In this document: in pieces, positions 1,365 through 56,402 of the stretch
Position numbering within the stretch: position 1 is the stretch's first letter
Layout of the letters: the number at the start of each line of letters is the position of its first letter
Assembly: GCA_951406725.2 (NCBI GenBank)
Contig: OX597818.1
Coordinates: 132,432,001 to 132,496,000 of the forward strand
Direction of reading: 5' to 3'
DNA length: 64,000 bases
From: Octopus vulgaris
Taxonomy: Eukaryota
Made by a program: the position numbers and the translations under genes
Notes under the pieces: model-generated
Told to the model about the DNA's origin: nothing
The model's input: the letters and a program-made list of their open reading frames with translations, nothing else
Database searches by the model: none

Positions 1365-1632
1365 TAATATATAAATATGTGTATGTATACATATGTGTGT
1401 GTATGTATGTATGTATGTATGTATGTATGTATGTATGCATGTATGTAAATATATATGTGCGTGTGTATGTGTATAGATAGACAAAATTACATACACATAT
1501 ATATGTACTTATGTGTATTTGTGTGCATGTATGTATGTGTATGTAAATGCACACACATATATAGTTCAAAGATGAAGACAGGGTTAAGAAGAACAAGCAA
1601 GTGTATTAGTTTAACGCACGAGAAAAATGGAA

Positions 1633-2017
1633 ATATATATATATAAACGGCAGTTTGTCTCTGTGTGTTTCTGTGTGTCTGTTAGGTTGTACCCTCACCC
1701 TGACCACAGCTTTCAACCGATTCTGATGAAACTTGACACACACATAGCCCAATGTCATAATTCAAAACTAACGCAGCGAAAATTTTGAAAAGTTCCCCCA
1801 GTTCTGAAAAAAATCGATAAATTCGACATGGGGTCGAGAATCAGAAACCCAAACCACAGACCGTCTAGGGGACGCAACTCCACCTTTTTTAACTCTCAAA
1901 AAAAAATTTACCATAATTTTTTTTCCATTTTTTTGCTATTTTTTGGCTATAACTCTCTAAAAATGCTTTATAGTTATTTCCCTTACAAACCTGAGCAACG
2001 CCGGGCGATACTGCTAG
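1633..2017 (+). mobile_element. Non-autonomous Helitron-like element
   Basis: TATATATATAAA start, subterminal hairpin cctgagcaacgccggg, ends CTAG|T; 3' end shared with the element at 929-1364. Confidence 0.7.
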
Positions 2018-2358
2018 TATAATTTAAAAGTAGGATAAAATCTTTATAAGAATTTATGAAATAGTTAGCGTGAAAAACCTCAAAAAGGGAAAAATTATAA
2101 GTATTCCCTTTAAATATATTTATTTATATTAAGGGCATTAATACACATAAATGCCTCACGCTTTGAGGGACTCTTTTCACCGGAATAGTTCAATACTGAA
2201 TTTTTATTCCGACTAGGCAATTTGTACCGAAATGCATTGCGAAAAAGCCCGCCATTTTCATAGATATGTAAGGATAAACATTCGTACAAGCTACGACGAA
2301 TTCTACGGTTGGCTATCGAGTTTGTAATGTTATGTTTTTTCTTATATTTCTTGAGTTT

Positions 2359-2422
2359 GTTGCACTGACGAACATTAAATGCATATTCTGCATTAAATGC
2401 GAAATCACATGTGATATGTAAC
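2359..2422 (+). ncRNA. Type-I hammerhead ribozyme motif (canonical core)
   Basis: gttgca-CTGACGA-stem II-GAAA-tcacatgtga (palindrome)-TA-tgtaac; stem I gttgca/tgtaac with one G-U. Confidence 0.75.
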
Positions 2423-2661
2423 TGAATTCTTTTTTAAAATGATGTGTTTTGAAGTTTTGCATTCGGTAAAATTTTGTTTATTTTTAGTAGTTTTGACCGC
2501 ATTGGTCCCTCTTAGCGTGTTGGTATCTACGAATAGTAGTACCCTCAATATAATATATATATAGTTATTCCAAACATGAACAAAGAGAAAACACAACAAC
2601 GCGAGGACGTGGAATAAGTATAGTGTTATTGGAAGCTCAGGAAAGGAAAGAAAGAAGGAGG

Positions 2662-2696
2662 ATTTAACGTTTCGAGCGGAGCTCTTCGTCAGAAAC
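2662..2696 (-). ncRNA. Minimal type-I hammerhead in a PLE-like terminal fragment (about 2560-2745)
   Basis: Reverse complement reads gttt-CTGACGA-a-GAGC-tcc-GCTC-GAAA-cg-TT-aaat. Confidence 0.7.
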
Positions 2697-3342
2697 ATAG
2701 AAAAAAGAAAGGTCCAAGGATACACAAGCGGTCACATATTGAACTCATATATATATATAGCATAAAAATGTCAGGATGTGAGATGAATGTATTTATTTAA
2801 AGACTTGACATCCTTAAGATTACTGCCGTTTCGTAGTCTTTTTCATAAAATAATAATTTCAGCGAGGAGTAAATTATGTACTCATGTTAGCATTAATATG
2901 CATGCTTTGTATTATACAATACAACTGCATATTCAGAAAGCAATGCAAACAAAGAAAGCTAGTTCATCAGACCACCAGAACATCATTGTTTATACCAACA
3001 ATTCAACTCTAGAGTCACTTTTTATTATTTTTTTTATTGCATCCCTTTTGATACGATCCTGTCTGAAACTGCTCCTGGTTGTATGATCTAATCTTTTTGT
3101 TTTAAAGCAATCTTTCCGTCAAAATATCGTGTTAGTTTAAGTCCCAGGCACTAAGATTAATAACGACAAAATTACATTAATAAATTCTTCATTATTTTGA
3201 AGATTAATTGTAAAAGAAAAGACGAGCAGTGTGTTTTTACAGAAATATGGTAAGAAAAGGGATTAAATTATTTCCAAAATTCTTCGAATGTTGATCGTAC
3301 GGGTGTCGAATAAAATTCGCTTTAAATACTGCAATAACGCAT

Positions 3343-3730
3343 AGGTAAGTAGCTTGCTAACCAACCACATGGTTCCGGGTTCAGTCCCACTGCGTGGCAT
3401 CTTGGGCAAGTGTCTTCTGCTATAGCCCCGGGCCGACCAATGCCTTGCAAGTGGATTTGGTAGACGGAAACTGAAAGAAGCCTGTCGTATATATGTGTAT
3501 ATATATATATGTATGTGTGTGTGTGTGTTTGTGTGTCTGTGTCTGTCCCCCTAGCATTGCTTGACAACCGATGCTGGTGTGTTTACGTCCCCGTCACTTA
3601 GCGGTTCGGCAAAAGAGAACGATAGAATAAGTACTGGGCTTGCAAAGAATATGTCCCGGGGTCGATTTGCTCGACTAAAGGCGGTGCTCCAGCATGGCCG
3701 CAGTCAAATGACTGAAACAAGTAAAGAGTA
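3343..3730 (+). mobile_element. SINE family B (tRNA-like head, CORE-like cttgggcaag, internal (GT)n, LINE-like tail)
   Basis: More than 12 copies in the window; ends ggcggtgctccagcatggccgcagtcaaatgactgaaacaagtaaaga. Confidence 0.85.
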
Positions 3731-7849: not shown

Positions 7850-8412
7850 GTATGTATGTATGTATGTATGTATGTATGTATGTATATATGAATGTATGTA
7901 TGTATGTGTGTAGATTTGTACGTTTTGTTTTATGTATGTATTCTCATGCACGTAGCTTCATATCTAAACATGCTTATATATACTTAAATAATAAACTTCA
8001 AAAAAGTTTTACAGATTTTTACAGTTGCATGTGTGTGTATGTATTGGTGTGTGTGTGTATACGTATACATGTGTCTGTGTATTTACGTAATATTTGTATG
8101 CAGCTCCAAAATAGATGACCTGATGACTCGGATGCTGTTGCTCTTCCATTACTTTCGCAAACAACAGTAACTTTCTTCAGCTGAATACACGTCACTGATT
8201 GGTTAAAATTATCCAAATACGACAACTTTAACACGAAATAACATCTAAAATACAAACTTTTGTCGTGTTCTACGTGACACATTCAACCAGTATCCGAAGT
8301 TTCAAACTGTTTAGTTTTTTTTAAAATTAATTAAAATTAATTAAAAAATTAATTAAAAAATCTGTGACTGAGATTGAAAAGGAGATTAGTCAGATCTACT
8401 GGCTGGAGGCAC

Positions 8413-8650
8413 ATAATCTTATACCTATGTTCTTTGCCTGTGAAGAGCCGAGCAGAACATCCTCTCCACCTTACTTCTTGGATGCAGCACAAATCTACAT
8501 GTCTCCGTTCAAGCATCTCAACAATCTCACCAGATCTACCTTTCAATGTGCCAGCCCTGACGGTGTGGAAGGGTGTGGGCCAGTGAAACCCTGGGTTGGG
8601 GGACAGTAGCATTATGCATTTGAGAAGATAGTTCGCATTTGGCATCTCTC
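8413..8650 (-). mobile_element. RTE-type LINE AP-endonuclease N-terminal fragment
   Basis: GTLKGRSGEIVEMLERRHVDLCCIQEVRWRG matches the APE 'D..xQE.RW.G' motif of RTE elements. Confidence 0.85.
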
Positions 8651-8859
8651 GTAAACATACAAATAGCCTTCAACCTGCATACACTACACCATCATTTTAT
8701 TTGCTACATAATCACCATGTTCAACGGGAGATAGACAGTAGGTAGGTATAGAGGAGGAGAGCGTTCTGTATAGTAAGCTGTTAGAGATGATCAGGAGAAA
8801 GACATCTGGTAAAGGTCAGAAGATAAAGGCTTCCGGTATATGTGGTGAGGTATATGAGT

Positions 8860-9097: not shown

Positions 9098-9804
9098 TAT
9101 GTGATGAGGTTGGATGGGAGGTCTTACCACGAATGGCAAAGCTTTGTGGCTGCCCTATTCCCTAGCAGAAGCTGATGTGGCATAGCCACAGACACAGGCT
9201 AGCTACTGATTAACAATCGACAAGGGAAAGGCAAATGGTTAACGAATCAGAGAGAGAGAGAGTAGTGAAATTTTCCAGAATTAGGGCTGGTAGAAAACAA
9301 AACTTGAACAGAAGGAATATCCGAGATTTAGAGCAAGAATAAACAAAATTGAATAATTGGATTATTTAAATTTGCTTTAACACACCACTAAATGAGTAAC
9401 AATAGTAATTATAAGGAGTGGTGTATATATAATACATACATACACACACACACACACACATATATATAGCCAGCCAGGAGATTACCATTGGCTTCACACC
9501 TATTTTGCAATTAGTAATATACGAGACTCGTTAGACCTACTGGTTGCAGGTACATAATCTCTCTATTACTGAAGGTAGGAACACTTATCTCTAGTAGTAG
9601 AAACTCGAAAGGTTATGTGCCTCCAGTTAGCAGGTCTGATGAGCTTCTTATGTTGCTAAGTGTGAGATAGGTGGGGAATCAATGGTAACACCCTGACCAG
9701 CCATAACCAATGGCTACATTAAATACATACATACATACATATATATATATATACTTTTATTCTTTTACTTGTTTCAGCCATTTGACTGCAGCCATACTGA
9801 TGCA

Positions 9805-9866
<62 letters not shown>

Positions 9867-9873
9867 AATTAAA

Positions 9874-10962
9874 ATAGGAAAATGCGCACACTCAAATAGT
9901 TTTAATATAATTTTTAACATATCGACCGGTTTCGCTATCGCTATTCATGATATTATGTTTCACTTATTTGAATATATATTTTTTCTTAAGAAGAAATTTT
10001 GTCCATGTTGTGTGTGATGAAATTCATGAGTGAATGAATTCACAAGTAGATAAATAAAGGGAGGTAATTGGTTGTCGTTATTATCGTTATTATTGTGGGT
10101 AAGGGAGATAACTGTTCAGCTTTCGGTAATGGGTGGGGATTATATATGTGTACAGACAGAGACAAGTTTCAAAAATTTTGTTTAGTAGTGGACTTATGTA
10201 CAGTGATGTAATCGTGAATTGAAATATGTAAAAAGATAAAAGTTGGTTATGCGTGCATTTTAAGGCGTGTTTTGTATTTTTCAATGAAAAAAGTTTCTTT
10301 ATTTACGTTCTAGTTGAGAGATTGCGTCTTTGCACTGGTAGAAAGGGAAGACTGGGAAATTTTGTTTGATGTTACCTGCACATTTTTCTATATGTTCACT
10401 GAGAGGAATTTGTCTGTATTGCGGGAAACGGATTTGCCCTTTATGTTGAGTGGTTCTCTTTCTCAAGGTCATACTCGTTTGTCCAATATAGTGGTGTTCA
10501 CAACCCGAGCAGGTTATTACATAAATTAGGTTCTCAGAGGCACAAGTGAAACTAGCTTTAATTGTGAACCTCTGTCTTTGTTTGGAAAGGAAATCCGAGC
10601 CTTCAAGCAGGTTGGGGCAGGTTCCACAGTTTAGGCGTCCACATTTTTCAACCGTTGGTTTCGTGTGGTGTTTTGTAAAGCTTCGCATTTGTTAGTAGTC
10701 TCTTTACTGGTACTGGAACAGTTATCTCCCTTACTCACAACAATAATAACGATAATAACGACAACCAATTACCTCCCTTTATTTATCTACTTGTGAAATC
10801 ATTCACTCGTGAATTTCATCACACACAACATGGACAAAATTTCTTCTTAAGAAAAAATATATATTCAAATAAGTAAAACATAATATCATGAATAGCGATA
10901 GCGAAACCGGTCGATATATTAAAAATTATATTAAAACTATGTGAGTGTGCGCATTTTCCTAT
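9874..10962 (-). mobile_element. Penelope-like element 3' fragment: GIY-YIG endonuclease flanked by inverted pLTRs
   Basis: ORF 10299-10688 has CxxxxCxxC..FTC.SEN.IYVITC..C..YIGQT...R..H; 9874-10117 is the reverse complement of 10716-10962; inserted in (TA)n. Confidence 0.9.
10883..10917 (+). ncRNA. Minimal hammerhead, A3:U8 core variant (mirror copy 9919-9953 on minus)
   Basis: atatc-ATGAATA-gc-gata-gc-GAAA-ccgg-TC-gatat. Confidence 0.65.
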
Positions 10963-10974
10963 ATATATATATAT

Positions 10975-11561
10975 AAATAGTGTACATTTAAACACAAGAG
11001 AAGCTGCCTTCAACAGGCAGCTTTACATGATAGAAGAAGCAGTCAAAACGACCAAAACCACATTTAAGAGCAATTTCGAAGGGAATGGAAAATAACAACT
11101 TTTACTTTGTTATTTTATTACGATCACACCTAGGTTTCAAATTTTTTAGCAAATAAAATAATTTGCCAGGCGAAATTCTCCTCAATGACCGTGCCATAAC
11201 ACTAACATATAATTAAGAGACAAATAACACGTATCTCGTTGTTATACATTATAATTTTTCAAATTCACCGCGCAAGTGCAGTTTCATTCAGCAGTAAATG
11301 AATAAATGCCGAACTAATCTTCTAAATTTGCTAAGAACATATACGTAAAATATATAGGGTAGCAAGTTTTTTTCAGAAATTTCCCTACCAGTGACCTAGC
11401 ATGTATAAAAAAAGTCAATGGACAACATATTTTCAATATAAAATAGTGTACATTTAAATACAAGAGAAGCTGCCTTCAATAGGCAACTTTATACGCTAGA
11501 AGAAGCAGTCAAAACGACCAAAACCACATTTAAGAGCAATTTCGAAGGGAATGAAAAATAA
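10975..11561 (-). mobile_element. 466-bp unit with about 120-bp terminal direct repeat (PLE pLTR or retrozyme-like)
   Basis: 10975-11095 is repeated at 11441-11561; hammerhead-like motif at 11120-11192 (minus). Confidence 0.55.
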
Positions 11562-11584
11562 AAACATATATATGTATATATGTA

Positions 11585-56195: not shown

Positions 56196-56402
56196 TGGAG
56201 ATGTACTTGCATAGCAAGTGATTTGATCTGAGATCGTGTGCTGGAGCGAAAACAATTGCAGCATGGAAGGTGTTTGTAAGCCATTTAAGAAACACACAAA
56301 AGCCGTTCGATTCACTTCAACATTTAAGTTTAATTTGTCAAGATATTTTCGTCGCTAAAATCCGCGACCTGTTCACTGACAAAAATCCGTGCTGCACGGA
56401 TT
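56196..56402 (-). mobile_element. Family E monomer with G3:C8 hammerhead (56334-56383)
   Basis: Homology to 42412-42672; in (TA)n; one substitution near the cleavage site. Confidence 0.78.

What the first reader, a model, noticed from the sequence alone, without database searches (positions are those of the whole stretch)
9874..10962. PLE GIY-YIG fragment with inverted pLTRs, each carrying a 35-nt A3:U8 hammerhead
Seen: atatc-AUGAAUA-gc-gaua-gc-GAAA-ccgg-UC-gauau is identical in both arms (10883-10917 +, 9919-9953 -), downstream of a Cys-motif/GIY-YIG ORF. Established: this is where PLE hammerheads sit, and inverted 5' pLTRs are a known PLE arrangement. Inference: the position supports reading AUGAAUA as a compensated core. 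The 2-bp stem II and ACCGGU palindrome suggest obligate dimer cleavage at GUC.
Basis: partly seen in the sequence, partly recalled or inferred. Interest (0 to 1): 0.72.

Follow-up and report, generated by a model that had tools for sequence, protein, structure and literature searches.

The report
A-U core hammerhead in Penelope retrotransposon
A broken copy of a high-copy Penelope-type jumping gene carries a tiny hammerhead RNA motif whose usual C-G core pair is replaced by A-U in most copies of the family; it likely cuts RNA weakly when two molecules pair up, but cutting is untested.

Summary
Observation confirmed. 9863-10962 is a dead, 5'-truncated, frameshifted Penelope-like element (GIY-YIG endonuclease with CX4CxxC and CCHH motifs, Neptune/Nematis type). 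It has a head-to-head inverted copy of its 3' end and sits in (TA)n. Both arms carry a 35-nt minimal type I hammerhead with A3:U8 in place of C3:G8.

Sequencing contigs show A3:U8 is the family's standard form: U8 has no alternative at 1% or more in 2 of 2 DNA runs, and A3 none above about 30% in 4 of 4. Five relatives carry a normal C3:G8 hammerhead at the same position. Two 35-mers are predicted to fold into the double hammerhead; a monomer is not.

Corrections: identity in both arms is uninformative (P=0.45), and the arms lie on opposite strands, so they cannot pair catalytically in one transcript.

Against activity: a published mutant scan found A3:U8 poorly active in another hammerhead. 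No A3:U8 among 56 published PLE representatives, but one key paper was unavailable.

Extra lead: A3-U4-G5 is an AUG that opens 17 codons up to a splice-donor consensus, so a start codon may explain the swap.

Verdict: new variant of a known kind, moderate interest.

The parts
9807..9862 (.). (TA)n microsatellite, left flank (likely insertion target)
   Evidence: sequence
9863..9873 (-). 11-nt extension present only at this end (short PLE 'tail', inferred)
   Evidence: one-ended tail described in PMC3846280 section 6
9874..10117 (-). 3' end (pLTR part) of the sense copy, left arm of the inverted repeat
9919..9953 (-). minimal type I hammerhead motif; A3=9948, U8=9943, C17=9924; 298 nt after the endonuclease stop codon
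10247..10706 (-). 5'-truncated end of the RT-endonuclease ORF: CX4CxxC linker, GIY-YIG with CCHH; frameshifted near 10304, last residues in another frame, stop ending at 10247
10707..10715 (.). junction between the two head-to-head truncated copies; family sequence continues differently beyond 10706
   Evidence: table 7
10716..10962 (+). inverted, 5'-truncated copy of the 3' end, right arm
10883..10917 (+). second copy of the hammerhead motif; A3=10888, U8=10893, ACCGGU palindrome 10906-10911, predicted cut after C10912
10888..10946 (+). AUG inside the core (A3-U4-G5), 17 open codons plus 2 nt, then a GTGAGT splice-donor consensus at 10941-10946 (broken in the other arm); function inferred only
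   Evidence: table 7
10960..10974 (.). (TA)n, right flank
   Evidence: sequence

Best explanation
This is a dead, truncated insertion of a high-copy Penelope-like retrotransposon whose terminal repeat carries a minimal hammerhead motif with A3:U8 as the family's majority core pair; the motif likely cleaves weakly after C17, and is predicted to do so only as a dimer formed through the ACCGGU palindrome. Shown: element anatomy, the motif, its majority status in the family, and C3:G8 hammerheads at the same position in relatives. Inferred: A3:U8 arose from C3:G8 by a compensated double change. In tandem or multi-copy transcripts of intact copies, two motifs pair through a 6-bp intermolecular helix III and swap stem I strands, probably helped by the element's own protein, and cut the precursor RNA. 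This locus itself is inert: the ORF is truncated and frameshifted, and the two motifs lie on opposite strands.
For: Homologs of the ORF are RT plus C-terminal endonuclease proteins; all 120 homologs of 600 aa or more have the CX2-5CxxC linker. 1,447-3,412 contigs per run lay on the element in 4 of 4 runs. Over the visible part of the motif (about 9927-9945), no alternative reaches 1% at A13, A14, A15.1, A9, U8 or N7 in 2 of 2 DNA runs. Loop II letters vary at 11-26% and CpG sites at 0.5-6.6%. No A3 alternative is among the 40 best-supported of 215 differences, all about 30% or more in at least one run. A sense-strand C3:G8 hammerhead lies 3' of the endonuclease in 3 of 3 genome-collection relatives (L031, L032, L033; 145-336 nt after the ORF end; two with a 6-nt helix III palindrome; L031 and L032 read by eye) and in 2 of 27 metagenome relatives (L008, L013). 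With any letters allowed at 3 and 8, 5 of 5 window hits are Watson-Crick (2 A:U, 3 G:C; two families). The two-strand minimum-energy fold of two 35-mers is exactly the double hammerhead (-13.3 kcal/mol), against +3.5 for the closed monomer; it holds at 35-61 nt of context. In a Poseidon element, single C3 or G8 mutants are dead, the G3/C8 swap partly rescues, and cleavage needs the element's protein (PMC11167929).
Against: No cleavage data. [quoted passage not shown] The 2-bp stem II is shorter than in any of 56 published PLE representatives, and the extra nucleotide after A9 (present in 54 of 56) is missing. G11.2 is changed to a non-pairing letter in 12.5% and 1.8% of depth. Lack of core variants is not significant: about 20% of visible positions carry a change at 3% or more (157 in about 785, run X1), so 0 of about 8 has P near 0.17. 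A3 was not visible at the 1% level, and one contig shows G3 (table 5c). With 86-113 nt of context, stem I is displaced in the predicted dimer (probability 0.01-0.02). 25 of 27 metagenome relatives showed no sense-strand downstream hammerhead by descriptor (many are short or distant). No relative with A3:U8, and no covariation within this family, was found. Hammerhead cleavage was not needed for insertion in vitro in the Poseidon system.
Confidence: 0.6

Rival explanations
1. Catalytically dead or negligible relic: the motif descends from a PLE hammerhead, but A3:U8 with a 2-bp stem II no longer cuts, and the fold persists as a protein-binding or reverse-transcription cis-element, or by hitch-hiking in a successful family.
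For: A3:U8 not rescued in the eLife scan; cleavage dispensable for insertion in vitro and no RNA-seq ends at the cut site in the Poseidon system; low activity of minimal PLE hammerheads in general; core conservation not significant.
Against: Two changes that together restore exactly the 3:8 pair are hard to get without selection on the active conformation. The other nine core letters, G10.1-C11.1, the palindrome and the UC site are intact. A second family in the window keeps a Watson-Crick G3:C8 pair.
Confidence: 0.25
2. Not exclusive with the best explanation: A3 is held because A3-U4-G5 is the start codon (or a regulatory upstream AUG) of a short first exon spliced at 10940|10941 to the element's ORF. 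U8 compensates, and cleavage would cut the message 25 nt into the reading frame, switching the RNA from message to template.
For: Frame open for 17 codons up to GTGAGT; about 0.03 such hexamers expected in 50 nt. Loose-end consensus of related copies (table 7, read by eye): GTAAGT at the same place with a synonymous Thr change (4, 6 and 1 contigs in three runs), and a GT 12 nt earlier in the same phase (4 contigs). Listed variants cause no stop and no indel at 1% or more. Precedent: the Poseidon PAc ORF starts inside its hammerhead, 26 nt before the cut; a rotifer pLTR holds the first 12 codons.
Against: No spliced RNA seen; exon 2 and the acceptor lie outside this copy. One loose-end group (3 contigs) is 1 nt out of phase. 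Upstream AUGs exist (10830). In L033, the only relative with its 5' junction, the ORF starts about 110 nt after the cut site. No GTRAG follows the hammerhead in L008, L013, L031 or L032. No homolog begins with a similar peptide, though gene-caller starts there are likely internal.
Confidence: 0.2
3. Chance motif in an AT-rich 3' region; the family's real hammerhead is elsewhere or absent.
For: Loose pattern not above chance; no Rfam hit; monomer fold no better than shuffles (z 0.73); stem II coincides with a short ATAGCG tandem repeat.
Against: 0 of 200,000 shuffles under the strict descriptor; same position and strand as C3:G8 hammerheads in five relatives; no other candidate core in the element.
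Confidence: 0.04

Closest known systems
Minimal type I hammerheads of metazoan Penelope-like elements (Cervera and de la Pena 2014, PMC4209133; main text parts 1-2 of 4 and supplement parts 1-2 of 3 read)
   Same: In the pLTR, 3' of the endonuclease; type I; short stem I; G10.1-C11.1; palindromic helix III implying a dimer; opposite-strand pairs 100-700 bp apart were reported.
   Different: A3:U8 (0 of 56 representatives in their Fig. S3: 53 C3:G8, 2 U3:A8, 1 U3.G8); 2-bp stem II (shortest there 3 bp); no extra nucleotide after A9.
Natural U3:A8 hammerheads (Perreault et al. 2011, PMC3088659, passages; Schistosoma Cercyon elements in PMC4209133)
   Same: Natural covariation of the 3:8 core pair; Perreault notes that stem II is commonly as short as 2 bp.
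   Different: Here a purine at 3 and a pyrimidine at 8, a double transversion from C3:G8.
Poseidon PAc of Anolis (PMC11167929; passages and section 3 part 2)
   Same: PLE hammerhead near the element's 3' end with an AUG inside the motif 25-26 nt before the cut.
   Different: PAc has C3:G8 and its ORF starts at stem II; here the AUG is the core's own 3-4-5 and its use as a start is untested.
Neptune/Nematis EN+ Penelope-like elements (Craig et al. 2021, PMC8557442, passages; Arkhipova et al. 2013, PMC3846280, passages and section 6)
   Same: C-terminal GIY-YIG with CX2-5CxxC linker and CCHH; 5' truncation; inverted 5' copy; one-ended tail; microsatellite flanks.
   Different: Nothing unusual apart from the core pair; the tail is 11 nt rather than 30-40.

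Membership tests
EN+ Penelope-like element | GIY-YIG endonuclease | tested here: met
   Pfam PF01541 E 3.8e-5, above cut-off
EN+ Penelope-like element | Endonuclease C-terminal to a reverse transcriptase in one ORF | tested here: inconclusive
   RT absent from this truncated copy; present N-terminal to the endonuclease in homologs of 48-71% identity
EN+ Penelope-like element | pLTR layout: inverted 5'-truncated copy, one-ended tail | tested here: met
   described
Neptune/Nematis clade | CX2-5CxxC linker and CCHH motif | tested here: met
   both present
Neptune versus Nematis | RT phylogeny with named references | not tested
PLE minimal type I hammerhead | Core letters U4, G5, A6, A9, G12, A13, A14, A15.1-U16.1, H17 | tested here: met
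PLE minimal type I hammerhead | C3 and G8 (CUGANGA) | tested here: not met
   A3 and U8; a Watson-Crick pair is kept, so filed as a variant, not a canonical member
PLE minimal type I hammerhead | G10.1-C11.1 and palindromic helix III | tested here: met
PLE minimal type I hammerhead | Extra nucleotide after A9 and stem II of 3 bp or more | tested here: not met
   no extra nucleotide, 2 bp; compare
PLE minimal type I hammerhead | Located in the pLTR on the sense strand and kept in the family | tested here: met
   A3 shown as majority only
Rfam hammerhead families | Covariance-model match | tested here: not met
   no match at gathering score or at E up to 10
Self-cleaving ribozyme | Site-specific cleavage after H17 | not testable with these tools
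   only contigs, no raw RNA reads, were offered

The most novel reading that the evidence does not exclude
The catalytic core doubles as the translation start: the family rewired C3:G8 to A3:U8 so that the core itself spells the AUG of a short spliced first exon, and dimer cleavage severs the start codon from the RT-endonuclease ORF, a self-cutting switch between message and retrotransposition template.
Probability: 0.2. Interest if true: 0.7.

Novelty: new variant of a known kind. Interest (0 to 1): 0.42.

Why it matters
A natural, family-wide A3:U8 core, next to a G3:C8 family in the same window, suggests that PLE hammerheads sample core pairs that mutant scans rate as poor and that descriptors built on CUGANGA miss. 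It is a ready natural test of whether selection acts on the active 3:8 pair, and so of whether cleavage matters to Penelope-like elements, which is an open question. If the AUG reading holds, it would give the PLE hammerhead a concrete role in controlling translation.

Tried and rejected
No whole genome was held, so no copy-by-copy alignment of the family was possible.

Rfam gave nothing relevant.

Sequencing runs: no RNA holder listed on record. Two runs guessed to be RNA gave 3 and 1 contigs over the motif; not used as evidence of expression. The second lay began at the last base before the putative donor, so splicing could not be seen.

Protein-space trick: an antisense open frame across the motif found 0 hits among 1.84 billion representatives.

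Viral contigs: no relative. Three pattern hits failed the helix descriptor. The first genome-collection scan found nothing.

Dropped as chance: three loose hits with non-pairing 3/8 letters (L009, L024, L033 minus strand) and one weak hit (L017, 1892).

A 12-bp distal extension of stem I (9976-9965 with 9898-9887) is predicted for the left arm, and one family variant turns a U.G pair into C-G. I did not accept it: the right arm has a mismatch in it, and the GTAAGT group would break two pairs unless compensated.

Paper searches for A3U8, A3-U8, C3A plus G8U, C3-G8/U3-A8, and core variants found no natural A3:U8. Lunse et al. 2017 on PLE hammerhead variants was not held.

Full report
OBSERVATION. 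The inverted repeat is real: arms 9874-10096 and 10740-10962, 223 nt with 5 mismatches, extending with one indel to 9874-10117 / 10716-10962. The 35-nt motif is identical at 10883-10917(+) and 9919-9953(-). In hammerhead numbering the plus copy reads A3 10888, U4, G5, A6, A7, U8 10893, A9, stem II GC/GC with loop GAUA, G12-A13-A14, A15.1-CCGG-U16.1, C17 10912, inside a 5-bp stem I. At this arm divergence 35 identical letters have probability 0.45, so the identity says nothing about selection. Rfam finds no hammerhead, and a loose pattern is not above chance. A strict descriptor, written after seeing the motif but allowing any Watson-Crick 3:8 pair, hit 0 of 200,000 shuffles of the 3' region and gave 0 hits in 200 whole-window shuffles.

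THE ELEMENT. The ORF lies on the minus strand (10299-10691, 130 aa) and matches Pfam GIY-YIG. It has the CX4CxxC linker and CCHH motif, which Craig et al. 2021 (passages) give for Neptune and Nematis elements. Its homologs are RT plus C-terminal endonuclease proteins. I could not separate Neptune from Nematis. The copy is cut off at about 10706 (table 7) and frameshifted near 10304, with its last residues in another frame. The insertion is thus two 5'-truncated copies head to head, both 3' ends facing outward into (TA)n, with an 11-nt extension at one end. This layout is described for PLEs. Both arms share two letters (10085, 10092) that differ from the family majority, so they likely come from one template. 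The host is likely an octopus: an 80%-identical piece lies in a protein named from Octopus bimaculoides, and earlier unchecked notes say the same.

IS A3:U8 THE FAMILY STATE? No genome was held, so I laid contigs of public runs. In 4 of 4 runs 1,447-3,412 contigs lay on 9870-10715; the family is high-copy, likely thousands of copies (inference; the tool warns that depth is no copy number). The 40 best-supported of 215 differences, each about 30% or more in at least one run, include none inside the motif; 175 rows were not shown. A second lay at the 1% level could report only about 9927-9945, which I inferred from the missing rows near the ends. In 2 of 2 DNA runs it lists no alternative at A13, A14, A15.1, A9, U8 or N7. 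It lists CpG-site changes at 0.5-6.6% (including G12 at 0.5-2.3%), loop II changes at 11-26%, and a pair-breaking change of G11.2 at 12.5% and 1.8%. So U8 is essentially fixed and A3 is the majority letter; one contig shows G3 (table 5c). The pattern (variable loop, constant core) fits selection but is not significant (rough P 0.17). No other near-canonical core fits in the element.

RELATIVES. Three PLE contigs from the genome collection (33-46% identity to the query homolog P0035) all carry a C3:G8 hammerhead on the sense strand 145-336 nt after the ORF end. L033 was found by script; L031 and L032 I read by eye because a T.T base of stem II and a 2-bp stem I defeat the descriptor. Two of them have a 6-nt helix III palindrome like this one. 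Of 27 metagenome loci, 2 have such a motif downstream, one has it on the opposite strand upstream (L017), and 24 show none. Here A3 lies 298 nt after the stop codon. None of the 30 loci has A3:U8. Within the window a second family has a G3:C8 core (42548, 51059, 58719). With any letters allowed at 3 and 8, 5 of 5 hits are Watson-Crick, but these are only two families.

MECHANISM. As a monomer the closed hammerhead costs +3.5 kcal/mol; two 35-mers have the double hammerhead as their minimum-energy fold, -13.3. This holds up to 61 nt of context. At 86-113 nt helix III and stem II persist but stem I is displaced. The two motifs of this locus are antisense to each other, and a read-through RNA is predicted to pair them base for base, so any activity belongs to tandem or multi-copy transcripts of intact copies. 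Published PLE minimal hammerheads cleave only as dimers and weakly. In Poseidon PAc the 3:8 pair matters, cleavage needs the element's protein, and insertion in vitro does not need cleavage. Against activity, Roberts et al. 2023 (passages; supplement listed but not opened) found only G3:C8 rescued among all double mutants of that region in a type III hammerhead. My estimate: weakly active dimer 0.6, dead relic 0.25, chance 0.04.

A POSSIBLE REASON FOR A3. A3-U4-G5 is an AUG. It opens 17 codons and 2 nt up to GTGAGT at 10941, a splice-donor consensus (recalled) that is broken in the other arm. Loose-end consensus of related copies (table 7, few contigs, read by eye) shows GTAAGT at the same place with a synonymous change, and a GT 12 nt earlier in the same phase; a third group is 1 nt off. 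PAc starts its ORF inside the hammerhead, and a rotifer pLTR holds the first 12 codons. But L033 starts its ORF downstream of the motif, four relatives lack such a donor, upstream AUGs exist, and no spliced RNA was seen. Probability 0.2.

NOVELTY. Cervera and de la Pena (main text parts 1-2 of 4; supplement parts 1-2 of 3) list 56 representatives: 53 C3:G8, 2 U3:A8, 1 U3.G8, 0 A3:U8. Their consensus figures were garbled in the text copy. Perreault et al. 2011 (passages) report natural U3:A8. Five searches found no natural A3:U8. Lunse et al. 2017, which I recall describing many PLE hammerhead variants, was not held, and I did not read the 3:8 exchange studies cited; either could already contain it. 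Also seen, with little bearing: PMC6765202 passages and section 11 part 2, PMC2920678 part 1 of 2, PMC3884650 and PMC6155905 passages, PMC11014351 one reference line, bioRxiv 10.64898/2026.07.22.740005 part 1 of 5 (supplements closed), and a supplement search of PMC8557442. Earlier unchecked notes of this scan report A3:U8 in a probable frog PLE family and in a phage, so the variant recurs and is not unique. Verdict: new variant of a known kind, interest 0.42.

Noticed in passing
window 42548(+), 51059(+), 58719(-); related copy about 56250-56396(-): A second repeat family with a G3:C8 hammerhead core (GUGAACA), 7-bp stem I, longer stem II and an AAUAUU palindrome; short copies with internal inverted arms.
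   Followed up: partly
window 10975-11104 and 11441-11570: 130-nt direct repeat, 92% identical, 466 nt apart, right next to the element; unexplained.
   Followed up: no
window 8349-8669(-) and about 9523-9650: Open frame resembling the N-terminus of an RTE-type AP endonuclease (recalled resemblance, not tested), with short similar fragments nearby.
   Followed up: no
L031, L032, L033 (whole loci): Animal-type Penelope-like elements with hammerheads sit in contigs of bacterial genome assemblies; several homolog proteins are named as symbiont proteins. Likely host contamination of these bins.
   Followed up: partly
L031 1846-1890: C3:G8 hammerhead whose stem II is closed by T.T rather than G10.1-C11.1, with an A at position 17 (read by eye).
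   Followed up: no
L032 1-1290: Long upstream coding region ending at a stop just as the RT frame begins without its own Met; possible two-ORF or frameshift layout.
   Followed up: no
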